The notes beneath the pieces were generated by a model. The model saw nothing but the letters and a program-made list of their open reading frames with translations. It was not told the DNA's origin and did no database searches. From NCBI GenBank assembly GCA_963810095.1, contig CAWEMM010000012.1:64001-128000 (forward strand): a stretch of 64,000 nt of DNA, read 5' to 3'. Positions 1,519 through 60,983 of the stretch are shown piece by piece (positions within the stretch are counted from its first letter, which is position 1; every line of letters starts with the position of its first letter). The translations under genes and the position numbers were made by a program. The stretch is from an uncultured Chloroflexia bacterium (GTDB taxonomy: Bacteria > Chloroflexota > Anaerolineae > CG2-30-64-16).

Positions 1519-1645
1519 TTCGGGGGCAAAGCCCCCGAAGCGGGGGCGGCGGGGGCCAGCCGGCCCTCGCCAAAGCGAAGAGCAAGCGGGCGGCGGGAGC
1601 CAGCCGGCCCTCGCAAAAGCAAGAGGCAAGCGGGCGGGGGGCCGA
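1519..1645. repeat. GC-rich hairpin followed by about 2.4 copies of a 44-bp tandem unit
   Basis: ttcgggggc-aaa-gcccccgaa hairpin at 1519-1539; gccagccggccctcgc at 1555 and 1599. Confidence 0.7.
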
Positions 1646-1739
1646 CCGTCGCCCAGACGAAGCTGGAGGACTGGCAGCACCCGCAACTTGTGCTAGAATC
1701 TGCTAACGACCGCAACGCACCGAGGGAGAGACGAGAGCT

Positions 1740-3428
1740 ATGCTGCCTGAACCGTTCAAACCGCTTGATCCGCTCTGGTACAAGGACGCCGTCTTCTATG
1801 AGGTGTTCGTACGCGCATTCTCCGATAGCAATGCCGACGGCATCGGCGATCTGGCCGGACTGACCGGCAAACTGGAATACCTGCAATGGCTGGGCATCGA
1901 CGCCCTCTGGATGCTGCCCATCTTTCCTTCGCCGCTGCGCGATGACGGCTACGATGTGGCCGATTTCTTCGACATTCACCCTGACTACGGCACGATGGAC
2001 GACCTCAAGGTGCTGATCGCAGAGGCGCACCGCCGCAACATCAAGGTCGTGGTCGAGCTGATCCCCAACCACACCTCGGATCAGAATGCCTGGTTCCAGG
2101 CTTCACGCGACCCGGCGCACCCCGAGCACGCGAAGTACCGCGACTGGTACGTCTGGAGCGACACCGACCAGAAGTACAAGGACACTCGCATCATCTTCAT
2201 CGATTACGAGCCGTCAAACTGGTCCTTCGCACCGCTGCGCCGCCAGTACTATTGGCACCGTTTCTTCAATCACCAGCCCGATCTCAATTATGACAACCCC
2301 GAAGTGCAGCGTGCCATGCTGAAGGTGGTGCAGTTCTGGCTGGACCTGGGTGTGGACGCGTTCCGGGCCGATGCCACGCCGTACCTTTTCGAGCGCGAGG
2401 GCACCAGCTGCGAGAACCTGCCAGAGACGCATGGCTATCTGAAACGCCTGCGCTCGTTCGTCGACGGCTACGCACCGGGCACGATGCTCCTGTCCGAGGC
2501 GAATCAGTGGCCCGAGGACGTGCGCCCCTATTTTGGCGGCAACCCCGACGACCCGTCCATACGGGGCGATGAGTTCCACATGAACTTCCACTTTCCGGTC
2601 ATGCCGCGGGTCTTCCTGGCGCTCGAGCGGCAGGACCGGACACCCATCCACGAGATCCTGGCCCGCACCCCCGCGCTGCCGCCGGGCTGCCAGTGGGCGA
2701 CGTTCCTGCGCTGCCACGACGAGTTGACGCTCGAGATGGTGACACCGGACGAGCGCGAGGAGATGTGGAAGGTCTACGCGCCCGAGCCGCGCATGCGATC
2801 AAACCTCGGCATCCGGCGGCGGCTGGCGCCGCTGCTTGGCAACGACCGAGCGCGCATCGAGCTGGCCAACTCGATCCTCTTCAGCCTGCCCGGCTCGCCG
2901 GTCATCTACTACGGCGACGAAATCGGCATGGGCGATAACATCTTCCTGGAGGACCGGCGCGGACTGCGCACGCCGATGCAGTGGCAAGATGCCCGCAGCG
3001 CCGGGTTTTCCGAGGCCGATCCGTCTGAATTATACTCCCCGCTCATAGCTGACGAGACGTACGGCTACCATCGCGTCAATGTATCGGCCCAGCGGGCCGA
3101 TCCTGACTCGCTTCTGAACCGCATGCGGACGATGCTGGCCGTGCGTAAAGCACACCCGGCGTTCGGCCGCGGCGACTTCACGATGCTGTTTCCCGAAAAC
3201 ACGCACATCCTGGCCTGCTTGCGCAGTTACCTGGGCATTACGCTGCTGTCAGTAAACAACCTCTCGACAGAGCCGCAAGAGTGTGAGATCGACCTGTCGC
3301 AGTTCGCAGGCGCGACGCCGATCGACCTGTTTACCACCGAGCGACTGCCCGCCGTGAACGAGGCGACCTGGACGCTTTCGCTGCCGGGAAGCGCCTACCG
3401 CTGGCTGCGCCTGGCCTCAGAGGCGTGA
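1740..3428 (+). CDS. treS: Trehalose synthase / maltose alpha-D-glucosyltransferase (GH13)
   Basis: [69 protein letters not shown]. Confidence 0.95.
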
Positions 3429-3440
3429 TGCCGCGTGCGG

Positions 3441-3484
3441 GTTAACGGTCCGCGCACGTTCAGTTTACGGTGACCTGTCATACT
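3441..3484 (+). promoter_or_regulatory. 11-bp-period direct-repeat array plus putative -10 (CATACT) upstream of small secreted protein 1
   Basis: gttaacg (3441), gcgcacg (3452), gtttacg (3463); catact 3479-3484; ACGTTCAGTTTACG matches the site at 3977 at 13/14. Confidence 0.55.
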
Positions 3485-3537
3485 CCCGATGGTAGTCCGG
3501 ACAAGCTCGTAGCACGAGCAGGGCGACAGGAGGGCGT

Positions 3538-3807
3538 ATGAGCAAGCGGATAGCGAGTCTGGCGATTGCGGTTATGGCCGTGTTGGCGTTGTCACTCCCG
3601 GCCAACGCCAGGGGGATCGTCGACCCCATGCCCCCGCGCAGGCCGGTCACCTCGGCTCAGAAGGCCGGGCTGAGTGCGAGGCAATGGATGAAGCTTGGCC
3701 CGATGAGCCACGCCGAAGTCGAGAAGATGCGTAGGAAGGCGCAGCGACCGGAGGCAAACCACAGGCCGCTGCCGCCGCAGTGGGCGACGTCACAGGCGTA
3801 TATCTAG
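3538..3807 (+). CDS. Small secreted protein (89 aa), paralog of 4085-4369
   Basis: RBS ggaggg; Sec signal MSKRIASLAIAVMAVLALSLPANA; motif WMKLGPMSHAEV; hairpins downstream. Confidence 0.7.
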   Translation: MSKRIASLAIAVMAVLALSLPANARGIVDPMPPRRPVTSAQKAGLSARQWMKLGPMSHAEVEKMRRKAQRPEANHRPLPPQWATSQAYI

Positions 3808-3972
3808 ATTGGGGGGTTGACCGCGCGGAGGGTGTCCGGATCCTCGCGCGGTCGCCCCCACCCCAACCCATTCTACGGTTTAGGCGTGAGGGATTGCTTG
3901 CAGGGGTGGCAGTCCCTCACGTCTTTTCGCGCTCTGGGCCGGTCGCATCGTTTCACAAGAACATAACTTGCA

Positions 3973-4016
3973 GTGAACGTTCAGTTCACGATCTATGAGC
4001 GTTGCCGTGCCATACT
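3973..4016 (+). promoter_or_regulatory. 11-bp-period direct-repeat array plus putative -10 (CATACT) upstream of small secreted protein 2
   Basis: gtgaacg (3973), gttcacg (3984), atgagcg (3995); catact 4011-4016; same 9-bp gap to -10 as at 3441-3484. Confidence 0.55.
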
Positions 4017-4084
4017 CGTCTTCAGGTTGCCGAAGGCTCCAGCGGGTTTGCCCGGTGCGGCCACTGTAGAAGTGGGAGGTAGAT

Positions 4085-4369
4085 ATGAAGACTCAAGTCG
4101 CAGTCGTGGTCATCGCAGCGTTGGTCCTGCTAGCGTTCGCGGTCCCGGCATCCGCATCGGTGCGAGACTACGTCGCGCCCCAGCCTGCCCGGCACCAATA
4201 CGGCTGGGCTAAGCTGGCCCCAGTCGACCAGGCCGAGCTGCAGGCAAGCAGGCTGGCCCCTGCCGGTTCCGCGCGTCTAATGGTTCCGGCAGAGCCCCGT
4301 CCGCGTGCGCCGAAAGCAAGCCGGGGCGAATTGCGGTCTGTAAGCGGGCGCGGGCCGCTCGCGCTGTAA
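4085..4369 (+). CDS. Small secreted protein (94 aa), paralog of 3538-3807
   Basis: RBS gggaggt; Sec signal MKTQVAVVVIAALVLLAFAVPASA; motif WAKLAPVDQAEL. Confidence 0.7.
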   Translation: MKTQVAVVVIAALVLLAFAVPASASVRDYVAPQPARHQYGWAKLAPVDQAELQASRLAPAGSARLMVPAEPRPRAPKASRGELRSVSGRGPLAL

Positions 4370-4484
4370 GCGGGCGCGCCGCTCGCGGCTTCGCCGTGCG
4401 GCCTGCCGCTCCAGCCGAAAGCGCGGGCCAAGGCGGGGGTCGCACTGTAAGCCTGGTGCGGCCCCCTGGGCGCACGGACGAGAC

Positions 4485-7400
4485 TCAGCCGGCCGCCATG
4501 CCCAACTCGTAGAGCCGCTCTACCATCATTGCGCTGCCCGTCGCCCACTCGGCCTCAAACTGGCCGTAATCCAGCGCCTTCATCGTCTGCTCGACCGCCG
4601 CGAGATGCTCCGGCAAGTCGGGCAGCCACATCGAGGCGCCCATCGCGGCCAGCAGCGTCATGGCGCCGCCAAAAAGGCGTGCGGCCCGCGGCCACTGCTG
4701 CCTGGCAACCGCCACCTCGGCCAACGCTTCGACCTGCTCAGCGAGCCAGCGCCTGTCGCCCAGGTCCCGGCTCAACACCAGCCCTTCGCGAAAGTGACCG
4801 AGCGCTGCGATGGGATCGCCCCGGCGCAGCGCCATCCGGCCGAGTGCGGTCAGTGACATCATCATCAGCCGGCGGTTGCCCTGGACGCGGCAGAGTGCAA
4901 TGCTCTCCTCCAGGAATACCGCCGCCCGCTCGAAGTCGCCCTGCAGCCGCGCCACGTCGCCGAGATTGTGCAGGACGAGCGCAAGCTGGTAGCTATCGCC
5001 CAGTCGTCGCCACAGTGGCAGCGACCGCTCGCCGTATCGTCGGGAGGCATCGTAGTCCTCGCGAATCCCGGCCAGGAAGTTCAGGCCGATCATCACAGAA
5101 GCAATGCCCCGGGTGTCGCCCAGTTCCTCGTAGATCGTCAGCGCCTCGCCAAACTGGCTGGCGGCCAGCCCGAGCTTGTCCTCATAGCAGGCAACCGTGG
5201 CAAGGTTGTTGAGAGCCAGCGCGCTCCCGGCGCGGTCTCCTGCCTCCTCCCATCGCTTAAGGCTCGCCGCGTGCCGCGCATTTGCCTCCACGTAATCCCC
5301 GCGCAGCCAGGCGACCGTGCCGGCCGCGCTGTGCACCCGGGCTTGGAGTGCCGCGGGGGCGACCGCCAACTGGGACAGCGCCCGCGTCAGCCACGTGTGC
5401 GCCTCGTCCAACCGGTCCGCGCGGACCCAGTACTCACCCAGGGCCGCCGCGAGCCGCAGGGCGTCATCAACACACACGTCCGAGCAAGTGAGGCCCCAAA
5501 TCAGCGCCTCCCGGATGTTATCATAGTCGCGCTCGATCTGCTGGGCGGCCGGCACCTGCTCGGGCCCCCTCAGGCGGTCTTCCAATGCCTCGGCCGCGTC
5601 ACGGTAAAAGGCGAGGTGCCTGCAGCGCACCCGCTTCGCCTCGCCTGCCGTGTCGAGCCACTCGACCACGTACTGACGCACCACCTCCAACAGGCGGTAA
5701 CGCGCCGGTTCGGCCGCGCTCCGACCAGTGGTCACCACGAATGATTTGTCGACCAACAGCCCGAGTAGGGGCAGAACGTCGAGGGCCGGCGCCTCGTCGA
5801 AGGCACAGACACGCTCGGCTGCCTCGAGGGTGAACTGGCCTCGGAACACGGCGAGCCGGCGCAGCAGGATGCGCTCGTTCTCGCTCAACAGGCTGCAGCT
5901 CCACGCCATCGCGGCCAGCAGGCTGCCGTGCCTCGAGTCGGGGGCCGCTGCAGAAAACAGCCGGAAGATGTCGTCCAGCCGGTCGGCGATCTGCTGCGGT
6001 GTCAATAGCTTGACCCACGCCGCAGCCAGCTCGAGCGCCAATGGCAGTCCGTCAAGCTGGCGGCAGATCCGCACGACCGCGGCCACATTCGCTTCCGTCA
6101 GCTCGAACTCCCGGTCGACCGCCCGCGCCCGGTCGACAAAGACCTGCACGGCCGGGAAGCGGGCCGCGTCCTCGGGTGTCACCGCAAGGGCGGCCAGGAT
6201 CTCTGGGGCGGAGAGCGGGCTGAGGAGCCAGCGCGTCTCGCCCGTGGCGCCCAAGGGGGTCTGACTTGTCGCGAGCACGCGCACGCCGGGCGCGGCTCGT
6301 CGAATGGCGACGGCCAGCTTGCCCGCGGCCTCGGGCAGCACCTCGCAGCCGTCCAGGATGACCAGTTGCCGCCTGTTCTCTAGCACGGCCAGCACCGTGT
6401 CAAGCGGCAAGGCCCCGGGCTGTTCCGGAACATCGAGCGCCCGGGCGAGTGCGCCGGGGAGCAGGCCCTCTTCGGGCACAGCAGCGACGTCCAGAAGGAC
6501 GGCGCCGTCGGGGAAAAGCGCTCCGGCAGCCGAAGCGACCTCGAGCGCCAGCCGGGTCTTCCCGCAGCCCCCCGGCCCGCACAGCGTGATCACCGCAGCG
6601 CTGCCCCGCGTCTCAACTTCGCTTGCCAGGAGCCTGAGGAGCGCGGCAACGTCTGCCTCCCGGCCTAAAAAGCTCGTCAACGGCTTGGCGGGCATTGGCC
6701 GGGGTAGTTCCCGGAGCTTAGGGATCGCCAACGCCGTGTTGTCCACAGCAGCGGGCGGCGCGCGGGAGACCACCGCCTCCCAGTCGCCCATTCGAGATCG
6801 CCCGAGCAGCTTACCATCCCGGATCTGGTGATAGAGCTGCAGCGTCTCGGCCTCAGGCTCGACCGCGAGCTCCTCGGCCAGCACCCTGCGACAGCGCTCA
6901 TACTGCGCCAGCGCGCCGCTGCGGTCGCCCGCGAGCGCGAGCGCCAGCATGGCTTTGCGGTGGCACTCTTCCCGGGTGGGATCGATGGAGAGAAGCTGGG
7001 CGGCCCGGCGGGCAGCCGTACGGTAGTCTGCCAGGCCAAACGCGTGGTCTGCCAGCGAGCACAGCGCCTCCGCAGCCAGCCGGCGGAGCGCTTCGCGCTC
7101 CAGCGATGCCCACTCCTCGAAGGCCGCGCTGTCCTTCAGGTAGAAGCCGTGCAGAAAGTCGCCTCGGTACGCGGCGAGAACCCGGTCCAGCGCGCTTTGC
7201 TCGTCCTCTCGCAGTGTCCGGCCGTGCTCGCGCGCGGCAAGGGCCGTATCCGCGGCGCACTTCAGCTCCAGGGCATCGAGGTAGGTGGGGCGGGCAGCGT
7301 TCCAGGCCAGCGCCTGGCGCGTGATCTCGAGGTAGTCGCCGATTTGCGCCTTGAGGCTGGCGAGCGCGACACGGAGATTGCCCAACGCCTGGTCCTGGCT

Positions 7401-7562
7401 CTGCTCCTCCCACAAGAACTCGGCGAGGACTTCACGCGAGTGGCTGGTCTGGGTGTAGGCAAGATACAGGAGCAGAGCGGTGGCCTTCCGCGAGGCCAGG
7501 CCAGCGAGTGGCGCGCCGTCCAGCGTGACAGACAGACCCCCGAGCGACCTGATCTCCAGCAT
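4485..7562 (-). CDS. AfsR/SARP-family regulator: wHTH + BTAD + STAND ATPase + TPR
   Basis: N-terminal SRKATALLLYLA..SREVLAEFLW; BTAD DPTREECHR..GDRSGALAQY; TSFLGRE, Walker A GPGGCGKT, LDGLPLALELAA; TPR repeats ALALNNLA, ALVLHNLGDVA. Confidence 0.92.
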   Translation of the reverse strand: MLEIRSLGGLSVTLDGAPLAGLASRKATALLLYLAYTQTSHSREVLAEFLWEEQSQDQALGNLRVALASLKAQIGDYLEITRQALAWNAARPTYLDALELKCAADTALAAREHGRTLREDEQSALDRVLAAYRGDFLHGFYLKDSAAFEEWASLEREALRRLAAEALCSLADHAFGLADYRTAARRAAQLLSIDPTREECHRKAMLALALAGDRSGALAQYERCRRVLAEELAVEPEAETLQLYHQIRDGKLLGRSRMGDWEAVVSRAPPAAVDNTALAIPKLRELPRPMPAKPLTSFLGREADVAALLRLLASEVETRGSAAVITLCGPGGCGKTRLALEVASAAGALFPDGAVLLDVAAVPEEGLLPGALARALDVPEQPGALPLDTVLAVLENRRQLVILDGCEVLPEAAGKLAVAIRRAAPGVRVLATSQTPLGATGETRWLLSPLSAPEILAALAVTPEDAARFPAVQVFVDRARAVDREFELTEANVAAVVRICRQLDGLPLALELAAAWVKLLTPQQIADRLDDIFRLFSAAAPDSRHGSLLAAMAWSCSLLSENERILLRRLAVFRGQFTLEAAERVCAFDEAPALDVLPLLGLLVDKSFVVTTGRSAAEPARYRLLEVVRQYVVEWLDTAGEAKRVRCRHLAFYRDAAEALEDRLRGPEQVPAAQQIERDYDNIREALIWGLTCSDVCVDDALRLAAALGEYWVRADRLDEAHTWLTRALSQLAVAPAALQARVHSAAGTVAWLRGDYVEANARHAASLKRWEEAGDRAGSALALNNLATVACYEDKLGLAASQFGEALTIYEELGDTRGIASVMIGLNFLAGIREDYDASRRYGERSLPLWRRLGDSYQLALVLHNLGDVARLQGDFERAAVFLEESIALCRVQGNRRLMMMSLTALGRMALRRGDPIAALGHFREGLVLSRDLGDRRWLAEQVEALAEVAVARQQWPRAARLFGGAMTLLAAMGASMWLPDLPEHLAAVEQTMKALDYGQFEAEWATGSAMMVERLYELGMAAG

Positions 7563-7946
7563 GCGTCACTGGCGCGAAGAGCAGTCCCTTCCTGGAACGC
7601 GATGCTGCCGGCATAGGGCAGTGGGACCTTGTCGCAACCGCTCGTCTTCCCGCGCACCCGCATCTTACACCCGAACAGCCAAAGTGGCTACGTAAGATCG
7701 CACACGATAGCGCCGCATTGTTTGGCACTCGTAGCGAGCTTGTCAACGGCTTGTGTGTCTCCTTGGGTGGCTGGACGGGCCGTTGCCATACAAAGGGGTA
7801 AAGTCACCGCGGGGCGCAATGGAGTCTTGCCTACACTACCAAGTTGTGGCATGATGCACCGTGTCCGAGTTTGTGAGCCTACCTCGCTCCACGCCCGCCG
7901 ACAGTCGCGATCGTCGCGCCCTCATCCATCGTTCCCTGGAGGCATC

Positions 7947-9167
7947 ATGGGACTAGACAAACGCCAGCTGTATCGCTTTCCCTGGTCGCTGAACGACAAT
8001 CCGATCGCCTGGTTGGAAGTCACCGACATTTGTAACATCTACTGTGAAGGTTGCTATCGCCAGCACATGACCGGGCACAAGACGCTCGAACAGGTCAAGG
8101 AAGAGGTCCTGATGTTCAAGCGTTGGCGCAATCCGGACAACGTCTCGATTGCGGGCGGCGAGCCTCTCATCTACCCCCACATCGTCGACCTGGTCGCGTT
8201 CATCCACGAACAGGGCATCAAGCCCGTCGTACTGACGAACGGCGTCGCGCTTACGCCGGAGATCCTCAAGGAACTCAAGAAGGCGGGGCTCGCGGGCTTC
8301 ACGCTCCACGTGGACAGCCACCAGAACCGGCCCAAGTGGAAAGGCAAGAGCGAGGCCGAGCTCAACGAGCTGCGCCAGACCTTTGCGGACATGATTCACA
8401 AGGTCAAGGGGTTGTATGTCATCTTCAACTCGACCGTCTATCCGTCTACGTACAAAGAAATCCCGGACGTGCTGAAGTGGGGCCAGAAGAACATCGACCG
8501 GGTGCACGGCCTGGTGTTCATCACCTACCGGACCGCCAAGCTGGACGAACAGAAGGCGACCGACCTCGCCGACCACGAAGTGGACCTGAGCAAGCTGAGC
8601 TATGTCAAGGACCACTTCGATGAGGAATTCGTCACGTCGCCCGAGGTTTACCAACTGCTGCAAGAGGTATGCCCCGAATACGACGCGGCGGGTTACCTGG
8701 GCGGGACGGCCCGGCACGACAGCTACAAGTGGCTGGCCGGCGCCATGATCGGCGCGAAGGGCAAGATGTACGGTGCAGTGGGGAAGGAAACGATGGAGGT
8801 GGCCCAGGCCGGCCATCACCTTCTGAACGGCACCTACCTGGCGTATCTCTCAGAGGCGAAGGTGGGCGGCCTCGCCTTCCTCATGGCGCCGTGGGACGGC
8901 AAGGTGCGCAAGGCGTTGGTGAACCGGGTCGGCGACCTGGTCCGGCATCCCGATCGCCTGCTGCGCCCGCTCTACATCCAGTCGGTGGGCATCATCCAGG
9001 CGCCCGACATCCAGCCGAACGGCCAGGCTGACATGTGCGACTCGTGCCCCGACATCACCATTTACGACGGCAAGTTCATCAACTCCTGCCGCATGGACGA
9101 GTACCGGCTCTTCGGCGGCTTCGTCTCGGTGCAGGAAAAAGAGAAACTCGAGACGATTCAGAACTAA
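7947..9167 (+). CDS. Radical SAM protein of unknown function
   Basis: CNIYCEGC (CxxxCxxC), AGGEP, LTNG; C-terminal CDSC..C; RBS ggagg before ATG 7947; TTGCCT-17-CATGAT upstream. Confidence 0.9.
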   Translation: MGLDKRQLYRFPWSLNDNPIAWLEVTDICNIYCEGCYRQHMTGHKTLEQVKEEVLMFKRWRNPDNVSIAGGEPLIYPHIVDLVAFIHEQGIKPVVLTNGVALTPEILKELKKAGLAGFTLHVDSHQNRPKWKGKSEAELNELRQTFADMIHKVKGLYVIFNSTVYPSTYKEIPDVLKWGQKNIDRVHGLVFITYRTAKLDEQKATDLADHEVDLSKLSYVKDHFDEEFVTSPEVYQLLQEVCPEYDAAGYLGGTARHDSYKWLAGAMIGAKGKMYGAVGKETMEVAQAGHHLLNGTYLAYLSEAKVGGLAFLMAPWDGKVRKALVNRVGDLVRHPDRLLRPLYIQSVGIIQAPDIQPNGQADMCDSCPDITIYDGKFINSCRMDEYRLFGGFVSVQEKEKLETIQN

Positions 9168-9242: not shown

Positions 9243-10163
9243 CTATTCCGCCTCCGCCTGGGAAATCACGGGCCCAACTGCGGCCTTTGGCGGACGGGTC
9301 GTGTCCACGGCTGCCGCAACGTGTGCGCCGAACACCGCAATCACGTTGCTGAGATACACCCAGAAAAGGGTGGCCACCACGCCCCCCAGTGACCCATAGA
9401 CAACCTCGTAGGTCGACAGTCCACTCCCCATGTACCAACTGAAGCCCGCGGTGACCAGTTGCCAGGCGATCGACGCCAGCAGTGCGCCAAAAAAGGCCGC
9501 GCGCCAGGTGACCTTGGTGTTTGGCACCCATTTGTAGAGCGCCAGAAACAGGGCAAAGCCGGCAAAGAACGGGATCACGTTGGAGAGCACGCCCCACTGT
9601 GGCGATTCAATCAGGGCCTGCAACTGGGGCACGAACACCGGAAACCGCGGGAGCAGGTCGGCGGCGAGGCTCAGGAAGATGGCGACGATAAGCAGCACCA
9701 GGAGCACGCCGGCCATCTTCAGCCCCATTACCCGCATGCCGAGGAAATTGCGCATGCGCGCATCGGGCCAAGCCTGGCTGACGTGGTGGCTGAGGGCGCT
9801 GAAGAAGCCGATGCCCGACCACAAGAGCGTCACAAGTGCGACGATCCCGACCGGCGTCTTGAGCCGGAACACTTCGTCAAAGGTTGTCAGCAGTAGCCGG
9901 CTCGGCAGCGGGGAGACGCCGGACAGCATGATCCGGATTTGGCTGTACACGCGCTGATCCTGCAGGATGACGCTGGCCGCCGCGACGAGAAAGATGAGCA
10001 ACGGAAAGATGGACAGAAAGGCATAGTAGGCCATGGCCGCCGCGGCCTCGGCGCCGCGGCGCTCGCCATACGTCGTGACCGCTCGGCGCAGCGATTGCGG
10101 CATTCGGCGAGACCAGCGCGCCGCGAGGGTGCGGGCCTCAGTTGGTAGTGTTCGCAGATCCAT
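9243..10163 (-). CDS. YihY/BrkB-family membrane protein
   Basis: AAAMAYYAFLSIFPLL, LYKWVPN, YEVVYGSLGGVVATLFWVYLS...FGA. Confidence 0.9.
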   Translation of the reverse strand: MDLRTLPTEARTLAARWSRRMPQSLRRAVTTYGERRGAEAAAAMAYYAFLSIFPLLIFLVAAASVILQDQRVYSQIRIMLSGVSPLPSRLLLTTFDEVFRLKTPVGIVALVTLLWSGIGFFSALSHHVSQAWPDARMRNFLGMRVMGLKMAGVLLVLLIVAIFLSLAADLLPRFPVFVPQLQALIESPQWGVLSNVIPFFAGFALFLALYKWVPNTKVTWRAAFFGALLASIAWQLVTAGFSWYMGSGLSTYEVVYGSLGGVVATLFWVYLSNVIAVFGAHVAAAVDTTRPPKAAVGPVISQAEAE

Positions 10164-24273: not shown

Positions 24274-24380
24274 TACAACCTCGTTCGCCCCTGATCCTCA
24301 ACACACCATCTCAACTGGCTCAGTTTGCGCCGCCGGGAACGACCCGTCTATGAGCTACTTTACATGATTCGCACCGCGCC

Positions 24381-24399
24381 TTCACATCTTCTGCACATC
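24381..24399 (+). promoter_or_regulatory. 11-bp-spaced TTCACA/TGCACA boxes upstream of the second BaeRS-like operon
   Basis: ttcacatc 24381, tgcacatc 24392; similar pair at 28220/28231. Confidence 0.5.
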
Positions 24400-24529
24400 C
24401 TTGCGCAACACTCAAGCGTGGGGAATAATGGTTGCCGTAGCCAACACTGAGCTGCAGCACGTTGACACGAAGGAGCGCACTTGGTGCATCCCTGAGTGCC
24501 GTTCTACTGGCTAGCCCCGCGGAGAAGAG

Positions 24530-28114: not shown

Positions 28115-28219
28115 GAGGGTCTCCTTGAAGGGATGATTTGATTGCCAACACGGGGTGAGATGCGCGCAAGTTCAGAACGTTACAGATGGCCGTTGTTCGC
28201 ACCGGACACCCACATCTCG

Positions 28220-28251
28220 TTCACAGGTCCTTCACAACCCGGCGGTATGCT
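28220..28251 (+). promoter_or_regulatory. TTCACA box pair plus -10 upstream of Met/Gly-rich secreted protein
   Basis: ttcaca at 28220 and 28231; tatgct 28246. Confidence 0.5.
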
Positions 28252-28301: not shown

Positions 28302-28850
28302 ATGAAGCGTATCACGGTAATCACCCTTCTTGCAGTCGTGCTCGCCACGCTGCTCGCCTCCACCGCTCTCGCGGCCGGCCCCGTGGGCGGTCGCCTGGCC
28401 CAGGGCACGACTCCGACGACGGGCGCGTGCCCCATGGGCGGAACGGGTATGGCCGGACGCCCTGACTGGGCCGGTCAGCCCGACCAGGTTGCAACGCTGC
28501 TCGGCATGACCGAGGCCCAGATCCAGGCCGAGCGCCAGGCCGGCAAGTCGCTGGCGCAGATCGCCGCGAGCAAGAACGTGTCGGAAGACAAGCTGATCGA
28601 GACGATCCTCGGCGCCAAGAAGACCCTGATTCAGCAGGCCGTGACGGATGGCAAGCTGACCCAGGCGCAGGCCGACACCATGCTGCAGAACATGCAGAGC
28701 ATGGTCAAGACGATGGTCGAGCGCAGCACGACCGGGCCCGCGAGCGGCCGGGGCATGATGGGCGGCCAGGGCACCATGGGCGGTCGCGGCGGCATGGGCG
28801 GCCGGGGCATGATGCGGGGCCAGGGAACGACCCTGGGCAACAACTTCTAG
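28302..28850 (+). CDS. Secreted Met/Gly-rich helical protein (DUF2680-like)
   Basis: Sec signal ending ALA; LGMT..Q...GKSLAQIA; AVTDGKLTQAQAD; GRGMMGG tail. Confidence 0.75.
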   Translation: MKRITVITLLAVVLATLLASTALAAGPVGGRLAQGTTPTTGACPMGGTGMAGRPDWAGQPDQVATLLGMTEAQIQAERQAGKSLAQIAASKNVSEDKLIETILGAKKTLIQQAVTDGKLTQAQADTMLQNMQSMVKTMVERSTTGPASGRGMMGGQGTMGGRGGMGGRGMMRGQGTTLGNNF

Positions 28851-30721: not shown

Positions 30722-32569
30722 CTAAATAGCCTGGCCCTTGAACTGGCTCATATACAGGCGATAGAAGAAGCCGCGGCGGGCCAACAAGTCCCCGTGCGTG
30801 CCTTCTTCCAGAATGCGGCCGTCGTCAATCACGAGCACCCGGTCCGCGTCCCGAATGGTGCTGAGCCGGTGCGCGATGACAAAGCTGGTGCGGGCACGCC
30901 CGGTCCCCGGGCGCGACATCAGCCGCAGCAGCGCGGCCTGGATGCGCGCTTCGGTGCGCGTATCGACCGAACTGGTCGCCTCGTCGAGGATCAGGATCGC
31001 GGGATCCGCGAGGATGGCCCGGGCGATGGCCAACAGCTGCCGCTGGCCCTGGCTCAGATTGCTGGCCCGTTCAGACAGCAGCGTCTGGTACCCCTGGGGC
31101 AGCTGCCGGATGAAGTGATCGGCGTCGGCCATCTCCGCGGCGGCTATGACCTCGGCGTCAGTCGCGTCGAGCCGGCCGTAGCGTATGTTGTCCATGACCG
31201 ATGCGGAAAACAAGAACGTATCCTGCAGCACCAGCCCGAGCTGGCGGCGCAGATCGGCCTTGCTGATGTCACGGATGTCGCGGCCGTCGATCTCGATGCA
31301 CCCTCCGCCGGCCTCATAGAAGCGGGTCAGCAGGTTAATGATCGTGGTCTTCCCCGCGCCTGTGGGGCCGACCAACGCGATCATCTGGCCCGGCTGCGCA
31401 TGCAGCGACATGTCCTTGATCACATGCTGGTCGGGGCGGTAGCCGAAGTCGACATTCTCGAAGCAGACGTCGCCACGGATGGCCGCCATAGCGGGCGCCG
31501 ACGCGGGCGCATCAGGCTCGGAAGGCGTATCGATGGTTTCGAAAATACGCTCCGCACCCGCCAGCGCGGCCTGGATCGAGTTGTAGATGTTGGCGATCTG
31601 CCGGAGCGGGTTGATGAAGTTCTGGCCGTAGACAATAAAGGTGGCGATGACGCCGACGGTCACCAGCCCGCGCAGCGCCAGGAACCCGCCCAGCCCCGCG
31701 AGCACGATCACGAAGAAGTTGCCCAGCACGTTCGTCAGGGGCATCAGGAGAAGCGCGTACGTGTTGGCCGAAACGCCCGACCGGTACACCGACTCGTTGC
31801 GCTCGCGGAATGCGGCCACGGCAGACTCGTTGCGACGGAACGCCGTAATCACCTTCTGGCCGCTGATCGACTCTTCCATGGTCGCGTTGAGCTCGCCGAG
31901 GTGCTTCTGCAGGTCACGAAACCCCCGGCGGGTATAACGGGCAACGAACTGGGTGAACCAGAACATGATCGGTACGACGAGCAGCGACGCCAGCGCCAGC
32001 CACTTGTCGAGAACAAACATCGCGACCAGGATGCCCACCATCGACAGCACGCTCGCGATCAGCGACGTGACGTTCTGCGAGACGGCCTGGTTGATGGCCT
32101 CGATGTCGTTCGTCAGGCGGCTCATCAGGTCGCCCGAAGGGTTACGGTCGAAGAAGGCGAGCGGCATCGTCTGCAGGTGCTCGAACAGGTCTTTCCGCAG
32201 CCCCTTCAGGCCCCGCTGCGACACGCCGGCCATCAGCCATGCGGACACTGCCTGAAAGAACGTGTTGAGGATGTAGGTGGCGGTCATCAGCAGCGCAATT
32301 CGCGGCAGGCCGGCCGCGTTCCGCGGTACGATATACCGGTCGATCGCGACGCCCAACAGGAACGGCCCGACCAGCCCGAGCAACGTGTAAATGGCAACGG
32401 CGATCAGCACGAAGACCAGCGTGACCTTGAATGGGCTCAGGTAGTGGAAAAGACCGCGCAGCGCCCGGCGCGGGTCGCGTGCCTTCTCAATCGTCGCGCC
32501 CATGCCGGCGGGCCGCGGTGCCTGGAACGCGCCCCGGGGTCCGCCTCCGCCTGGAGCAGAGAAGCTCAC
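30722..32569 (-). CDS. Heterodimeric ABC exporter subunit (TMD+NBD)
   Basis: GDLMSRLTND, GPTGAGKTT, LSQGQRQ, ILDEATSSVDT, IAHRLSTI. Confidence 0.95.
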   Translation of the reverse strand: MSFSAPGGGGPRGAFQAPRPAGMGATIEKARDPRRALRGLFHYLSPFKVTLVFVLIAVAIYTLLGLVGPFLLGVAIDRYIVPRNAAGLPRIALLMTATYILNTFFQAVSAWLMAGVSQRGLKGLRKDLFEHLQTMPLAFFDRNPSGDLMSRLTNDIEAINQAVSQNVTSLIASVLSMVGILVAMFVLDKWLALASLLVVPIMFWFTQFVARYTRRGFRDLQKHLGELNATMEESISGQKVITAFRRNESAVAAFRERNESVYRSGVSANTYALLLMPLTNVLGNFFVIVLAGLGGFLALRGLVTVGVIATFIVYGQNFINPLRQIANIYNSIQAALAGAERIFETIDTPSEPDAPASAPAMAAIRGDVCFENVDFGYRPDQHVIKDMSLHAQPGQMIALVGPTGAGKTTIINLLTRFYEAGGGCIEIDGRDIRDISKADLRRQLGLVLQDTFLFSASVMDNIRYGRLDATDAEVIAAAEMADADHFIRQLPQGYQTLLSERASNLSQGQRQLLAIARAILADPAILILDEATSSVDTRTEARIQAALLRLMSRPGTGRARTSFVIAHRLSTIRDADRVLVIDDGRILEEGTHGDLLARRGFFYRLYMSQFKGQAI

Positions 32570-34426
32570 TGGGCCCTCCCTTCCGGCGTGGCGCCGAGCG
32601 CGTCCTTCGACGCGGCAGCGCCGGTCATGGCGCTGCTCCCCTCGCCGGGACCCCCATCGAAACCGTTCCCATCCGGCAGCCCGCCGCCAAGCTGCGAATC
32701 ATAGATCTCCCGGTAAATTGGGCTCGACCGCAGCAGATCGCGATGCGTGCCCTCTGCGACGACCTCCCCCCGGTCGAGCACGACGATCTTGTCGGCCTTG
32801 AGCACTGTGCTGATCCGCTGTGCGACCACGAACGTGGTGTGCGCCCGGCCAGGGTGATCCCTCTTCTCCGCCTCGAGCGCGTCCTGGATTTTGGTCTCGG
32901 TCTCGACGTCCACCGAGCTAGTCGCATCGTCGAGGATCAGGATCTTGGGTAGCGTGAGCAGCGCGCGGGCAATCGCCAGGCGCTGCTTCTGCCCGCCAGA
33001 GAGATTGGCGCCGCGGGCGGCCACCCGGCTCTCATACCCCTGCGGCATTGCCATGATGAAATCGTGCGCCTGGCTGGCCTTCGCCGCGGCGACGACTTCA
33101 TCGTCGCTGGCCGCGGGCCGGCCATACCGGATGTTGTCGGCCACGCTGCCCGAGAAGAGCACGGTCTCCTGGGGCACGAGCGCCACCGCGCCGAGCAGGC
33201 TGTCCTCCTGCAGCGCGCGCACGTCGGCGCCAGCCACCGCGACGCTCCCGCTCTTCACGTCGTAGAAGCGCGGGATCAAGTTGACGAGTGTGGACTTGCC
33301 CGAACCGGTGGCCCCGAGCACGGCCACGGTCTGGCCGGGCTGTGCGAGCAACGACACGTCATGAAGCACCTGTTCGTTGGCCGAGCCGTTGTAGTAGAAA
33401 CCCACGCCGGTGAGCGCAACCTGCGGCTCGGCGTCGAGCAGCAGGGGCCGGGCGTCTGGGGCGTCCTGCACCTCGGGCTCCGTTTCCAGCACCCCCATGA
33501 CGCGGCCGGTCGACGCCAGGCCCTGCGCCCACGTTTGCGACAGCATGGTCATCATGATCAGCGGCGTCATCGTGGTGAGCAGGTAGTTGGTGAAGGCCAC
33601 AATCTGCCCCACCGACATCTGGCCCTGGATGGCGCTCAGGCCGCCCGCCCAAATGACGACGACCATGCCGAGGTTCACGAACACGGTGAGCACGGGGCCC
33701 ATGGTCGACATGAAGCGCATGACCCGCACGGAGGTATCGGTGTAGTCCTCGTTCGTCTGCTCGAAGCGCCGGTTTTCGTACGGCGCCGCGCACAAACGCC
33801 TTCACCACCCGCACGCCCGCGATGTTCTCCTGGAGCACGGTGTTGAGGCGATCCAGCCGCTGCTGTACGGTCAGGTACAGCGGCTCCATCTTGACGATGA
33901 AGAAGACGATCACAACCATCGTCACCAGGAGGATGGGCGTCAGGATCGAGCGCGAGGCGACTGCTGGTTGTGACCATGAGGATGAAGCTGCCGACCATCA
34001 GCAAGGGCGCCCGCGTGCCGATGCGCAGGGAGATCTGCACGAGCCGCTGCACGTTGCTCGAGTCGCTGGTGAGCCGCACCATGAGCATGCCCGTGCGCTG
34101 GCGGTCCAGGTTGCCGTAAGAGAACTCCTGGATTTTCAGGAAGATGGCGTCGCGGACGTCGCGGCGACGCTCTCGCCCACCCGGACGGATAGATAGTTGT
34201 TGCCAATGGCAATCATCGCGCTGAGCACCGAGATGCCGATCATCAGCGCCGCGGTTTGGAGCACGACGGCCTGATTGTTGGCACGAATGCCCTGGTCGAT
34301 GATGCGCTGAATGAGCCGGGGGATCGACAGGTCGAGAACGACGAGCGTCGTAAGGAGGACGAGCGCGCCCAGGGCCGGCTTCCAGTAAGGCCGGACGAAC
34401 GGCCAGAGTTTGCGAATGTTGGTCAT
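32566..34426 (-). CDS. Heterodimeric ABC exporter subunit (degenerate site); frameshifts near 34165, 33950, 33790
   Basis: RLTSD, QENIAGVRVVKAF, GATGSGKST, LSGGQKQR, ILDDATS, VAQRIST pieced from four ORFs. Confidence 0.88.
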
Positions 34427-34580
34427 GTGTTTGCGTGTCCACGCCAGATATAACAAGCGGGCGGCCCGGTACGGCCGGCATTGAGCCGATCATCCTTGGC
34501 CGCCCACACGGAGCAACATTATGCGCCCACGGGAGGGAACAGGCAAGCTCTACGGGCCCGTTTGCCCGCCTGTGCCCACC

Positions 34581-45183: not shown

Positions 45184-48100
45184 ATGAAGTTCTTTACGGT
45201 GCAGAAGATCGAGCGGCTGCTGCGCGAGGTGCAGGCCGCGGTCTACCGGGGCGTCCTCAACATCCCCAACTGGAAAGCGATCGAAGTCGACGTGACGGGC
45301 GCGGAAGCCCCGGATTTTGACGACAGCGGCTGGCGCGACTTCCGGCTGGGGGATGCGTGGGGCGGATATGACGTCGTGGCCTGGTTTCGCACCCGGGTGC
45401 CGATTCCCCACGATTGGCGCCCGAGCGGGGGTCAGGGCCGCAAGCTGGCACTCTCCTTTCTGGTGGGCCCGCGGGAAGAAGGCAACTCGACCGCCGAGAC
45501 CCTGCTTTATGTCAACGGACAGCCCCTACAGGCCATCGACCGGTGGCACGAGGAAGCCTGGCTGCCACCCGAGCTGACCGGCGACGGCGAGCTGTGCCTG
45601 GCGCTGCGGGCTTGGAGCGGCGTGCTCGAGGTGCCCCCCGTGCGCCACTTCCGCCGCGCCCAGCTCGTCTGGATCGACGAGAACGCGGAGCGGCTGGCCG
45701 GCCTGACCGACATCCTGCTCCGGGCGATACGAGATCTGCCGGAGAACGACCTGCGCCGGCACATGTTCCTGGCAGCTCTGCACCGGGTTTACCTCGACAT
45801 CGACTTCGCGGCCTCTCGCCCCGACCAACAGGCGCCCGGCCTTGCGGTGACGTACACGGAACGGTTCTACGACACCGTACGTGCGGCGGTCCGCGTCCTC
45901 TCCGCGGAGCTGGAAGTGTGGCACGGCACGCGCGAGCTCAAGCCGGTGATCACGGCCATCGGGCACGCCCACATCGACCTGGCGTGGCTGTGGCGGCTGA
46001 AGCACTCGCGAGAAGGCCAGCCGCACCTTCAGCACCGCGCTGCACCTCATGCGCCAGTTTCCCGAATACCGTTTCATGCACTCGGCGCCGCAAGCGTACA
46101 AGTTTCTGAAACAAGACTACCCGGACATTTTCGAGCGGGTGAAGGCGCGCATCGCCGAGGGCCGCTGGGAGGTGACGGGCGGCATGTGGGTGGAAGCCGA
46201 CACGAACCTGATCGGCAGCGAGTCGCTGGTGCGCCAGTTCCTGTACGGCATGCGCTACGTGCAAGACGAGTTCGGCGTCGACATGCGGGTGCTGTGGCTG
46301 CCCGACGCGTTCGGCTACTCCTACGCCCTGCCCCAGGTCGCCAGCCAGAGCGGCATCCGCTATTTCGTCACGAGCAAGATCAGCTGGAGCCAGTTCAACC
46401 GCTTCCCCAATGACACGTTCCGGTGGCGCGGGCTCGACGGCACGGAGCTGCTGTCGCACTTCATCACCACGCCCGAGATCGAGAGCCCGGGCAGCGCACA
46501 CACCTACAACGGCCAGATCACCCCGCGTGAGGTCAAGGGCATCTGGGAGAACTACCGGCAGAAGGACATCAACGAAGAACTGCTGATGCTGTTCGGCTGG
46601 GGCGACGGCGGCGGCGGCCCGACCCGGGAAATGCTGGAGCGCGCCGGGGTGCTGCGCAACCTGCCGGGCTACCCCGCGGTCGAGCTGGGGAAGGCCGAGC
46701 CCTTCTTCGACCGGCTGGCCGACCGGCTGCGGGGTGAGGACGTGCCGGTGTGGGACGGCGAACTGTACCTCGAGATCCACCGCGGCACTTACACCTCGCA
46801 GGCGTTCCTGAAGCGTGCGAACCGCAAGGCCGAGATCCTCTACCACGACGCGGAATGGCTCAGCAGCCTGGCCGACGTGCTGCTGGGCCAATCCGAGTAC
46901 CCGATGGACGCGCTGCGCGAGGGCTGGGAAGCCATCCTGCTCCACCAGTTCCACGATATCCTGCCCGGCTCCTCCATCCGGCAGGTCTACGAAGACGCGG
47001 CGCGGGCGTACGAGCGGATCGAGTCGATCGGGTGGCAGACGCAGACCGCGGCGCTCGACCGGATCGCGTGGAGCGTCGGGACCGCAGGCGAGTCGTTGAT
47101 TGCGTTCAACCCGCTTTCCTGGACCCGCGACGACGTCGCTGGCGCTGCCTTGGGATGCGGAACGGCCGGCGATGACCGTTAGGGGCAATGACGGGCTTCC
47201 GGCGCGATGCCAGGTTGTGAAAGAGGGCAGCGAAACCCGCCTCCTGGTCGAGGTCGAAGGCGTGCCCTCGCTCGGCTACCGTGCCTACCCACTGGTCGAA
47301 CCCGCCGGCGGTCCCGCTGCACCGGCGGGGCGCCCCGAGCCGAGTCACGCGGGGGGTTCCGGGGTGGCCGGAGTCGAACGATGCCCAGGGGCACGCTGCC
47401 GCCGTTTCAGTTACCCCGGAGCGACTCGAGAATGCGTTTTGGCGCATCCAGCTCAACCGGGCGGGCCAGATCAGCTCGCTTTACGACAAGCAGGCGGGGC
47501 GCGAGGTGCTGGCGCCGTTCGGCCGGCCGGCCGACCGCGGCGAGCCGGGCGAAGCTCGCGGCAACGTCTTCCAGGCCTTCGAAGACAAGCCGATGAACTT
47601 CGACGCGTGGGACATCGATATCTATTACCAGGAGAAGATGTCGGAAATCAACAGCTTGCAGGAGGCCGTGGTCGAAGAGAACGGCCCGGTGCGCGGGGTT
47701 CTCCGGCTGACCTGGCGCTACGGGAGCTCCACCATCCGGCAGCGCCTGACGATCTATCGCCGCTCGCCGCGGATCGACTTCCGCACGGAGGTGGACTGGT
47801 GGGAGCAGCAGGTCCTGCTTAAGGTCGCCTTCCCGGTCGCGGTGCGTTCGACCCGCGCCACCTACGAGATCCAGTGGGGCTCGATCGAGCGGCCGACACA
47901 CTGGAACACGTCATGGGACTACGCCCGGTTCGAGGTGGTCGGCCACAAGTGGGCCGACCTGTCAGAAGGCGGCTACGGCGTAAGCCTGCTGAACGACTGC
48001 AAGTACGGGCATGATATCAGGGGCAACACGCTGCGGCTGACCCTGCTCAAGTCGGCGCTGCGACCGGATGCGGCGGCGGACAAGGGCCGCCACACCTTCA

Positions 48101-48533
48101 CGTACTGCCTGCTGCCGCATGGGGGCGACTGGCGCGAGGGGGGACAGTTCACGAGGCGTATGCGCTCAACCATCCCCTGTTGGCTGCGCTAACGGGCCCT
48201 CAGGACGGCCCCTTGTCTCCCCAGCACAGCTTCGTCTCCGTCAGCGCCGACCACGTCATCGTCGAGACGGTCAAGCGGGCGGAGGATCGCGCACCGAGCG
48301 GCGGGCCGGGCAACGGGGATGGCTCAGAAGTGAACGCGTGGATCGTGCGAGTCTACGACTGGCAGCAGCGGCGCAGCAGCGGCGTCCGCCTGAAATTCGG
48401 CAGCACCGTGCGCCATGCGGTAGCGTGCAACCTCATCGAGAAGGCCGAAGCGCCGGCCCGCTATGAGGGCAACGACATCATCTTCGACATCAAGCCGTTC
48501 GAGATCAAGACGTTCAAGGTTTGGCTCAGTTAG
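45184..48533 (+). CDS. GH38 alpha-mannosidase (long form); frameshifts near 46010, 47140, 47340-47390, 48150
   Basis: GHAHIDLAWLW, GGMWVEAD, WLPDAFG, FGWGDGGGGP, GELYLEIHRGTYT, QFHDILPG, RFEVVGHKWADLSE, PFEIKT across five ORFs. Confidence 0.88.
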
Positions 48534-59759: not shown

Positions 59760-60983
59760 TCACCTGGCGGAACCGGCGCCGATCTTCGCCAATATTCGTC
59801 GCTTCACCTGTCCGTCATACACTTGCCACTTCAGGTCCCTATACTCGTCGGTGCCGTTCCCCGCCAGAAACCCAATTGGAACCTCAAACCCCCCCGCCAA
59901 CGCCTTGCCACCGCCAATGTATCGTCCTGCCGCATCTTTGCCGAAGACCGACTTGATAAACTCGTCGGGGTCCAGCGTCAGCTTGGTCGTGCGGAGCGAA
60001 CCCACCAGGCGCTCGGCCGACGCATCATCCCCCTGGATAATGCCGTACACGATCGCCGTGTGGATATTCTCTTCGGTCAGCAGAAAATCGGCTGCCTGGG
60101 GAATCGCATCGCGGTCTTCGAGCCGGATATAACCGATCCCGCTGAGCGAGTAATTGTCGACGATCACCCGGTTCCCCAAGGCCCGCTGGATCGTTTCCAT
60201 GGCCTGCTTCGAACGGGCCTGGCTCATGATTTGCTCGAGCAAGTCGGCATCCCGGTAGCGGCTCAAAAATGCGGCCGCCGTAAAGTCGTCGGGGCCGGCT
60301 CGCAGCAGGCCGTGGGTGTCGGTCAGCAGGCCGTGCATCAGGGCTGTCGCCGCAAGCACGTGCTCCCTGCGGGCCTTGTCCATCGGCAGCAAGCCCTGGG
60401 CCAGATACTCGGCATATAGGGTCGCCGTCGCGCCCACCCGGCGAATGTCGCTGAACTGCGGTTGGACCCTCTCTTGCAGTTCATGATGGTCGATCACGGC
60501 AAGGGCCGGCACGCCCGCCTTTTCCAGCGCTTCCACCAGCCGCATCGCGGTTGTGCCCTGGTTATCCACGAACACTGCCGCCTGATACTTGCGCAGGTCG
60601 CTCGCCGGGTTCCACCGGGCCACATTCATCCCAATGAGCCGAACCAGGGCCACGTTCTGCACATGGCTGATTTGCTCTCCGTATACGACGTCCGCCTGGA
60701 TCTCGTGCGCCGCGCTGATGAGTTGGTGTGCGTACGCCGACGCCAGCGCGTCCGGGTCCGGAAAGTCCTGCAGGACGATGATGTGACGCTCGCCCCGATG
60801 CGCCGCCAACATCTCGCCCAGCCCCTGTGCCACGGTCATGATGGTGTGCACCCCGTGCGCCCGCACCCCGTGCGAGCGCACCAAAGGGGTGTGCTCGCCC
60901 TCTGCGGCCAGCGCCTCCGGCGGCACGTCCTGCGCACCTGCTTGCGTGTCCACTACCGGCTTGTTCGGGTCTTGAGCTGGCAT
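59760..60983 (-). CDS. DHH-family phosphoesterase (NrnA-like)
   Basis: PDPDA, FVDN, IDHH, GATAT, TDT, GSLR, GGG. Confidence 0.88.
   Translation of the reverse strand: MPAQDPNKPVVDTQAGAQDVPPEALAAEGEHTPLVRSHGVRAHGVHTIMTVAQGLGEMLAAHRGERHIIVLQDFPDPDALASAYAHQLISAAHEIQADVVYGEQISHVQNVALVRLIGMNVARWNPASDLRKYQAAVFVDNQGTTAMRLVEALEKAGVPALAVIDHHELQERVQPQFSDIRRVGATATLYAEYLAQGLLPMDKARREHVLAATALMHGLLTDTHGLLRAGPDDFTAAAFLSRYRDADLLEQIMSQARSKQAMETIQRALGNRVIVDNYSLSGIGYIRLEDRDAIPQAADFLLTEENIHTAIVYGIIQGDDASAERLVGSLRTTKLTLDPDEFIKSVFGKDAAGRYIGGGKALAGGFEVPIGFLAGNGTDEYRDLKWQVYDGQVKRRILAKIGAGSAR

What the first reader, a model, noticed from the sequence alone, without database searches (positions are those of the whole stretch)
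3538..7562. Candidate new system: two paralogous secreted micro-proteins converging on an AfsR-like SARP/STAND/TPR regulator
Seen: two ~90-aa ORFs with strong RBSs, Sec signals ending PANA/PASA and a shared core (WMKLGPMSHAEV vs WAKLAPVDQAEL), separated by hairpins and tail-to-tail with a BTAD-ATPase-TPR gene. Known: Streptomyces AfsR activates a small adjacent gene (afsS), and TPR domains sense re-imported peptides in RRNPP systems. Inference: a peptide-signalling or regulator-target module in which the STAND regulator drives, and may sense, exported peptides. I do not recognise a family for these proteins.
Basis: partly seen in the sequence, partly recalled or inferred. Interest (0 to 1): 0.75.

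Follow-up and report, generated by a model that had tools for sequence, protein, structure and literature searches.

The report
Regulator driving twin secreted micro-proteins
Two small secreted-looking proteins of an unnamed family each carry their own copy of the same activator-binding promoter and sit beside a large AfsR-type regulator, which therefore probably switches them on; whether they signal back to it is untested.

Summary
Both ORFs (3538-3807, 4085-4369) have RBSs and Sec-like N-termini. They converge on a 1025-aa SARP-STAND-TPR gene. ORF2 has four non-self homologues (49-60% identity) with the same core and no Pfam/NCBIfam family. ORF1 is a divergent member (0 of 3000 shuffles, but weak at database scale). 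A matrix trained on one promoter ranks the other 2nd or 3rd of 127,898 positions. The units lie in the same register as the afs box of afsS. So this looks like a duplicated, SARP-activated cassette, an afsR-afsS-like unit whose output is an exported, disordered, cationic micro-protein. Binding by this SARP is inferred; an OmpR-type regulator acting in trans is not excluded. Nothing supports peptide sensing by the TPR, and the regulator fails the RRNPP size criterion. Linkage in other genomes is untested: no orthologous locus was found, and 0 of 21 distant loci show the arrangement. Verdict: new variant of a known kind, interest 0.5.

The parts
3440..3472 (+). Operator 1: three 11-bp direct repeats (consensus nGTnnACGdTn) at about -51, -40 and -29
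   Evidence: leave-one-out rank 3 of 127,898
3476..3484 (+). Extended -10 of cassette 1 (TG-T-CATACT)
3528..3533 (+). Ribosome-binding site AGGAGG
3538..3807 (+). ORF1, 89 aa: Sec-like signal 1-24, core WMKLGPMSHAEV 50-61; divergent paralogue of ORF2
3812..3860 (+). Stable hairpin just after the ORF1 stop
   Evidence: z -3.8, 0 of 200 shuffles
3882..3927 (+). 17-bp stem followed by T4: probable intrinsic terminator separating the two cassettes
   Evidence: z -4.9
3972..4004 (+). Operator 2: three 11-bp direct repeats, same consensus and spacing as operator 1
   Evidence: leave-one-out rank 2 of 127,898
4008..4016 (+). Extended -10 of cassette 2 (TG-C-CATACT)
4075..4080 (+). Ribosome-binding site GGAGGT
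4085..4369 (+). ORF2, 94 aa: Sec-like signal 1-24, conserved SVRDYV and WAKLAPVDQAEL, variable tail; four homologues elsewhere
4338..4389 (+). 26-nt imperfect tandem duplication that contains the ORF2 stop
4435..4466 (.). 12-bp GC-rich hairpin between the converging genes (possible bidirectional terminator)
   Evidence: z -2.05, 3 of 200 shuffles
4485..7562 (-). Large SARP, 1025 aa: OmpR-type wHTH + BTAD (1-250), STAND ATPase (about 295-635; Walker A 329-336 intact), TPRs (about 730-970)
7717..7746 (-). Sigma-70-like promoter candidate for the regulator gene (TTGACA-18-AACAAT), without the repeat box

Best explanation
An afsR-afsS-like regulator-target unit with an exported output. A whole cassette (operator, extended -10 promoter, RBS, small gene, terminator) was duplicated in tandem. 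The proteins drifted to about 30% identity while both operators were kept [repeats and spacing shown; duplication inferred]. The adjacent large SARP is held off by its ATPase and TPR domains until a cytoplasmic signal is sensed by the TPR [inferred from AfsR]. Its wHTH-BTAD domains then bind side by side on the 11-bp repeats over the -35 region and recruit sigma-70 RNA polymerase [inferred from geometry]. Both genes are transcribed separately. The products leave by Sec and are cut after AxA [heuristic]. They are 60-100-aa cationic, mostly disordered proteins with one short conserved segment (V..W.K..P....E, partly helical). Most likely this segment is a linear binding motif for a protein partner at or outside the membrane, so the proteins are the output of the switch, not its input [inferred; the partner is not identified].
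For: Shared promoter: a matrix from ORF1's three units ranks ORF2's promoter 2 of 127,898 positions, and the reverse ranks 3 of 127,898; with both, the two score 34-37 bits and the next -10-anchored site scores 5. Identity among the six units is 0.60 against a maximum of 0.49 in 200,000 random -10-anchored pairs. Without any motif, both tie for second of 552 -10-like sites on 11-bp periodicity and are the only ones in the top 12 with TG. SARP targets carry 11- or 22-bp-spaced repeats next to the -10 (PMC10936776). The published afsS promoter has units at -40 and -29 and 6 bp to a C-initial -10, the same frame as here; the afs core GTTYA scored in that frame ranks ORF1's promoter 1 of 3783 and ORF2's within the top 20. 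Three-repeat SARP sites are known (PMC10972967). Other periodic boxes in the window, upstream of an OmpR-family gene and a DUF2680 gene, use a different unit (TTCAC). The regulator aligns with AfsR over residues 7-632 (E 1.2e-8). The small-protein family is real. The model of ORF2 is disordered apart from the signal helix and helix 49-57 (mean pLDDT 62, pTM 0.24). Net charge of the mature parts is +4 to +8.
Against: The register is not unique: the afs core scores 21 of 30 at offset 0 but 19 of 30 at offset -5, and with two units only, ORF2's promoter ranks within the top 94 of 3783. This geometry is common to OmpR-type wHTH activators, three of which are in the window. AfsR's base-contacting T88 and R92 align with V65 and S69 here, so likeness to the afs box is not explained by shared contacts. 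No orthologous locus was found (9 relatives at 30-39%), and 0 of 21 distant STAND/BTAD loci had a family member or a comparable small secreted ORF. The ATPase differs from 6 of 6 aligned relatives at two motifs (LDG for LDN, TSQ for TSR). Codon use is atypical. Among five ORF2-like proteins the signal peptide (0.78) is as conserved as the core (0.79) and the tail is 0.60, so special selection on the core is not strongly shown.
Confidence: 0.55

Rival explanations
1. Peptide feedback loop: the exported proteins are cut to a short W-containing peptide, re-imported and bound by the regulator's TPR domain, which closes a quorum-type loop on their own genes.
For: Four of five RRNPP signature criteria are met at face value for ORF2: size 10-100 aa, Sec-like signal (heuristic), TPR, adjacency within 400 bp. 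The closest solved TPR matches are PINS/LGN scaffolds, which bind extended peptides (recalled). The operators would give the positive feedback typical of PlcR-PapR (recalled).
Against: The receptor is 1025 aa, not 250-500, and is a STAND protein. The family is 86-126 aa, against 21-50 aa for validated propeptides. The conserved segment is internal and about 30 aa long, with tails of variable length. One homologue lacks the K of the core. No paper describing a peptide-sensing SARP-STAND turned up in the search listings.
Confidence: 0.15
2. The repeats are read by an OmpR/PhoB-family response regulator encoded elsewhere; the small genes belong to its envelope or nutrient stress regulon, and the SARP gene is only a neighbour.
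For: 11-bp repeats over the -35 region are general for OmpR-type wHTH domains, and PhoP shares the afs box (PMC10972967). Three such regulators lie in the window. A similar arrangement, a TTCAC box before a secreted DUF2680 protein, is at 28207-28251. Linkage to the SARP gene is seen in one genome only.
Against: The box differs from the TTCAC boxes. It occurs only at these two places in 64 kb, both within about 1 kb of the 3' end of a gene with its own OmpR-type wHTH and no other boxed target nearby.
Confidence: 0.17
3. A decaying module: the regulator's switch is crippled, ORF2's tail has been cut by a duplication, and ORF1 is a drifting copy.
For: LDG and TSQ against LDN and TSR in 6 of 6 relatives; 26-nt duplication at the ORF2 stop, with the next frame weakly resembling one homologue's tail (93 of 3000 shuffles for P0006; 1172 of 3000 for P0003); atypical codon use; no close homologue of ORF1.
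Against: Both operators, both extended -10 elements, both RBSs and both signal sequences are intact although the proteins are about 30% identical. The regulator ORF is open over 1025 codons with an intact Walker A. Two homologues also end at 86-89 aa.
Confidence: 0.1
4. The small proteins are RiPP precursors modified by the radical SAM enzyme encoded divergently from the regulator (7947-9167).
For: A radical SAM gene is adjacent; the core has a W-x-K motif of the kind cross-linked in some RiPPs (recalled); the regulator has a weak match to a cyclophane-RiPP TPR model (72 bits, cut-off 1125).
Against: Sec-type signals would remove the substrate from a cytoplasmic radical SAM enzyme. No RiPP maturase family reaches its cut-off among the 25 best of 63 matches. 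The radical SAM promoter region has no box. W-x-K is not invariant.
Confidence: 0.03

Closest known systems
Streptomyces AfsR-afsS (large SARP and its adjacent small target gene)
   Same: SARP-STAND-TPR architecture of about 1000 aa; small adjacent gene; 11-bp direct repeats in the same frame relative to a C-initial -10.
   Different: Not an AfsR orthologue (70 bits against a cut-off of 1430). The F/Y-HD latch is replaced by LLE, and the base-contacting residues differ. There are two targets, each with three repeats and an extended -10, and they look exported, whereas AfsS is described as a small sigma-factor-like regulator.
RRNPP peptide quorum-sensing pairs (PlcR-PapR, NprR-NprX, Rap-Phr)
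   Same: Small Sec-type gene next to a TPR-bearing regulator.
   Different: The receptor is twice the size limit and is a STAND ATPase with a wHTH-BTAD; the small proteins are 2-4 times longer than validated propeptides; no evidence of processing or re-import.
OmpR/PhoB-family regulons of small exported stress proteins
   Same: wHTH activator, 11-bp repeats over the -35 region, small secreted target; an apparent example lies in the same window.
   Different: The candidate activator here is a one-component STAND protein, and the box and the protein family are different.

Membership tests
Large SARP (SARP-STAND-TPR) | N-terminal OmpR-type wHTH plus BTAD | tested here: met
   BTAD E 8.5e-21; alignment to AfsR and EmbR from residues 3-7 to about 245 (E 3e-5). 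No separate Pfam wHTH match was listed.
Large SARP (SARP-STAND-TPR) | Central STAND ATPase with Walker A, Walker B, sensor and GLPLA motifs | tested here: met
   GPGGCGKT at 329 and GLPLA at 505; Walker B LDG and sensor TSQ deviate from 6 of 6 relatives; Pfam ATPase matches are below cut-off.
Large SARP (SARP-STAND-TPR) | C-terminal TPRs, total length about 1000 aa | tested here: met
   TPR_12 E 8.6e-18, three stretches; 1025 aa.
Large SARP (SARP-STAND-TPR) | Target promoters with 11-bp-spaced direct repeats next to the -10 | tested here: met
   Sequence criterion only.
Large SARP (SARP-STAND-TPR) | Binding to and activation of those promoters | not testable with these tools
   Needs EMSA, footprint or reporter.
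AfsR orthologues and F/Y-HD AfsR-like regulators | Score above the AfsR equivalog cut-off; F/Y-HD latch | tested here: not met
   70 of 1430 bits; AfsR RYRFHDLVR aligns with RYRLLEVVR; the six relatives also lack HD, so this is a subfamily trait.
AfsS | Small cytoplasmic sigma-like protein with internal repeats | tested here: not met
   These proteins begin with a Sec-like signal and share no family match; the AfsS description is. No direct alignment to AfsS was run.
RRNPP quorum-sensing system | Propeptide of 10-100 aa | tested here: inconclusive
   89 and 94 aa here; homologues 86, 89, 125, 126; validated range 21-50.
RRNPP quorum-sensing system | Sec signal on the propeptide | tested here: inconclusive
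   Charge, hydrophobicity and AxA fit in 6 of 6 proteins; SignalP not available.
RRNPP quorum-sensing system | Receptor of 250-500 aa | tested here: not met
   1025 aa.
RRNPP quorum-sensing system | TPRs in the receptor; genes adjacent (-60 to 400 bp) | tested here: met
   115 bp between ORF2 and the regulator. ORF1 is one gene further away.
RRNPP quorum-sensing system | Mature peptide is re-imported and binds the TPR | not testable with these tools
   Needs peptidomics and a binding assay.
Radical-SAM RiPP cluster | Cytoplasmic leader-core precursor with a cognate maturase | tested here: not met
   Sec-like N-termini; no maturase family above cut-off among the 25 shown.

The most novel reading that the evidence does not exclude
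A bacterial NLR-type (STAND) transcription factor whose natural activator is a peptide cut from the exported micro-proteins it transcribes: a quorum-sensing loop built from a SARP-STAND-TPR protein rather than an RRNPP receptor, with two paralogous signals. It would supply a native ligand for a regulator class whose effectors are largely unknown.
Probability: 0.13. Interest if true: 0.85.

Novelty: new variant of a known kind. Interest (0 to 1): 0.5.

Why it matters
Large SARPs are abundant and most have no known target or signal: a 2026 preprint counts 3,853 AfsR-like regulators in Actinomycetota, with 58% of the 3,200 mapped lying outside biosynthetic clusters (10.64898/2026.09.02.748808). 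This locus offers a regulator of the HD-less subfamily, two copies of a predicted operator and a target family with no Pfam or NCBIfam name, so binding and activation can be tested directly. It suggests that the afsR-afsS layout can serve to release small proteins outside the cell. If those proteins feed back on the TPR, it would be a new form of peptide signalling.

Tried and rejected
Word-based searches with the mature ORFs found only themselves (1 of 1 and 1 of 3 candidates); the homologues came from profile searches (one search scored only the 8000 best candidates). Pfam, NCBIfam and PDB gave no significant match for the family; weak NCBIfam matches (UrcA, WGxxGxxG, SMB-1; E 0.009-0.3) fall mainly on the signal peptide. 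No match in phages; in plasmids only three chance matches at E 5-6. Rfam found nothing near a gathering score in 3300-8000, and neither leader folds better than shuffles (z 0.16 and 0.02), so a riboswitch was rejected. The single genome scan, run with the regulator, gave 9 distant loci from 36 candidate stretches and no orthologue. I fetched 12 of the 68 plasmid hits listed (380 and 8 records matched). Across these and the 9 genome loci, 0 of 21 had a family member, a comparable signal-peptide ORF under a strict filter, or (for the 11 loci then held) the box; 8 of the 21 lack a SARP domain and some have short flanks, so this says only that the arrangement is not general. A complex prediction of the TPR region (640-1025) with the ORF2 core (25-66) returned no answer (score 0.02, mark 0.32); this is no evidence either way. 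A structure model of the regulator was submitted but had not finished and is not used. The idea that the 26-nt duplication cut off a conserved tail is weak (93 of 3000 for one homologue, not significant for the other, three frames tried). The first motif count (2 against 0 in 60 shuffles) used a pattern derived from the two sites, so the leave-one-out test is the one relied on. Cluster names, accessions and language-model look-alikes for these proteins could not be obtained.
Full report
Observation. Both small ORFs have a Shine-Dalgarno sequence 4 nt before ATG and a basic-hydrophobic-AxA N-terminus; this is a heuristic, since SignalP was not available. Two strong hairpins separate them, the second followed by T4. 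The large protein has BTAD and TPR domains above Pfam cut-offs and ATPase matches below them, and aligns with AfsR over residues 7-632.

Are the small genes real and related? Pairwise, the shared core is marginal (E 0.002; 140 of 5000 shuffles for the mature parts), and codon use is atypical for this genome. A profile of the two proteins run against 1.84 billion representatives gave 5 hits at E<=0.001: the two queries and three others. A second profile search added a fourth. All four resemble ORF2 (49-60% identity) and keep the signal, the SVR.YV-like segment and the W.K.APVDQ.E-like segment, with tails that bring them to 86-126 aa. So ORF2 is a real gene of a small, rare family. A profile of the five ORF2-like mature sequences, built without ORF1, scores ORF1 above 3000 of 3000 shuffles, but only at E 0.11 among 4259 six-frame segments. 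ORF1 is a probable divergent paralogue. No Pfam, NCBIfam or PDB family fits. AlphaFold gives ORF2 a signal helix, a short helix at 49-57 and disorder elsewhere, at low confidence. The mature parts are cationic.

Upstream of each ORF lie three 11-bp direct repeats (3440-3472; 3972-4004), then 6 bp ending in TGn, then CATACT. A matrix trained on one promoter ranks the other 2nd (ORF2) or 3rd (ORF1) of 127,898 positions on both strands; with both, the next best -10-anchored site scores 5 bits against 34 and 37. The six units are 0.60 identical, against a maximum of 0.49 in 200,000 random anchored pairs. A motif-free periodicity ranking puts both in a tie for second of 552 -10-like sites. With the terminator between them, this makes two complete cassettes in tandem, each separately controlled by the same activator.

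Which activator? SARP targets carry repeats 11 or 22 bp apart next to the -10, and AfsR binds the two 11-bp units at -40 to -19 of afsS as a side-by-side dimer (PMC10936776: passages and section 7). The afsS promoter in that paper's primer table has the same frame as here: units ending 6 bp before a C-initial -10. Scoring the afs core GTTYA in that frame ranks ORF1's promoter 1 of 3783 and ORF2's in the top 20 with three units, and in the top 2 and top 94 with two units. The adjacent SARP is therefore the natural candidate. Three cautions apply. The frame is not unique (21 of 30 at offset 0, 19 of 30 at offset -5). AfsR's base-reading T88 and R92 are V and S here. The same geometry suits any OmpR-type wHTH, and three response regulators lie in the window. 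Periodic boxes near one of them and before a DUF2680 gene use a different unit, TTCAC, which favours but does not prove a separate activator for the small genes.

The regulator. It is a large SARP but not AfsR (70 bits against a cut-off of 1430). The F/Y-HD latch that a recent preprint finds conserved in AfsR-like proteins (10.64898/2026.09.02.748808: abstract, passages, sections 8 and 9) is LLE here, and the six aligned relatives also lack HD. Walker A is intact, but LDG and TSQ replace the LDN and TSR of 6 of 6 relatives. That the arginine senses the ATP gamma-phosphate is recalled, not taken from a call; the switch may be altered. In AfsR the ATPase and TPR domains inhibit the SARP domain and ATP relieves this; I assume the same here.

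Conservation of the arrangement. This is the main gap. The homologues came without context. The one genome scan found only 30-39% relatives of the regulator (9 of 36 candidate stretches). Of 21 distant loci (9 genome, 12 plasmid-collection; 13 with a SARP domain), none held a family member or a comparable small secreted ORF. The arrangement is thus not general to the family, and its conservation among orthologues is unknown. The host is also not established: the gene content recalls Chloroflexota, and the lowest E-value was an Anaerolineales contig, but at 34% identity.

Mechanism and rivals. Most likely (0.55) the SARP activates both cassettes and the exported proteins are its output, acting through a short conserved motif on a partner at or outside the membrane. 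A feedback loop through the TPR (0.15) is possible: four of five RRNPP signature criteria are met at face value, but the receptor is twice too long and the proteins are far longer than validated propeptides (PMC10075063: passages). Control by an OmpR-type regulator in trans (0.17), decay (0.10) and a RiPP role with the neighbouring radical SAM gene (0.03) are the other readings.

Literature. Ten full-text searches were run, combining BTAD, SARP, AfsR, STAND, NB-ARC, bacterial NLR, secreted peptide or small protein, quorum sensing, RRNPP, and Chloroflexi or Anaerolineae. Their listings showed no description of a large SARP controlling or sensing secreted micro-proteins. The library lacks most subscription journals, and listings were judged by title and abstract start. 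PMC11301090 and PMC10972967 were seen as passages only. The preprint's supplementary tables of AfsR-like regulators and AfsS orthologues were not seen and could contain related neighbourhoods.

Verdict. A real feature, better supported than first reported on the regulatory side and unsupported on the sensing side. It is a new variant of the afsR-afsS layout with an unnamed exported protein family and a predicted operator in two copies. Interest 0.5; the peptide-sensing case has probability 0.13 and would deserve 0.85.

Noticed in passing
window 28207-28251 + and 28302-28850 +: TTCAC-type 11-bp repeats and a TATGCT -10 upstream of a 182-aa secreted-looking DUF2680 protein: probable target of an OmpR-family regulator.
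   Followed up: partly
window 24357-24401 +: Similar TTCAC/TTTAC repeats upstream of the OmpR-family response regulator at 24530: likely autoregulation.
   Followed up: partly
window 59801-59845 +: TTCAC/GCCAC-like units before a TATACT hexamer between two minus-strand genes, with no long plus-strand gene evident; unexplained.
   Followed up: no
window 61387-61431 +: Highest 11-bp periodicity in the window (CTTA/ATTA units) before TATTCT, pointing antisense into the end of the gene at 61444-62220; unexplained.
   Followed up: no
window 4338-4389: 26-nt imperfect tandem duplication containing the ORF2 stop; the next frame reads GFAVRP where homologue P0006 has GFACRP (weak).
   Followed up: partly
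P0003 and P0006 C-termini: Two homologues share a 38-aa extension with a CWDGFAC pair of cysteines that the other four proteins lack.
   Followed up: no
window 7947-9167 +: Radical SAM gene divergent from the regulator; best NCBIfam matches (tetraether lipid synthase, NirJ) are far below cut-off.
   Followed up: partly
window 1740-3428 +: Trehalose synthase TreS (TIGR02456 above cut-off) ends 11 bp before operator 1 with no terminator-like site found between them, so read-through into ORF1 is possible.
   Followed up: no
window 1540-1650: GC-rich repeated palindrome-like units between the SH3-bearing gene (81-1217) and treS.
   Followed up: no
window 32566-34456 - and 45526-48533 +: Genes that appear split into several ORFs (an ABC transporter; a glycoside-hydrolase-like gene), possibly frameshifts or assembly errors.
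   Followed up: no
window 9243-10163 -: YihY/BrkB-family membrane protein (Pfam PF03631).
   Followed up: no
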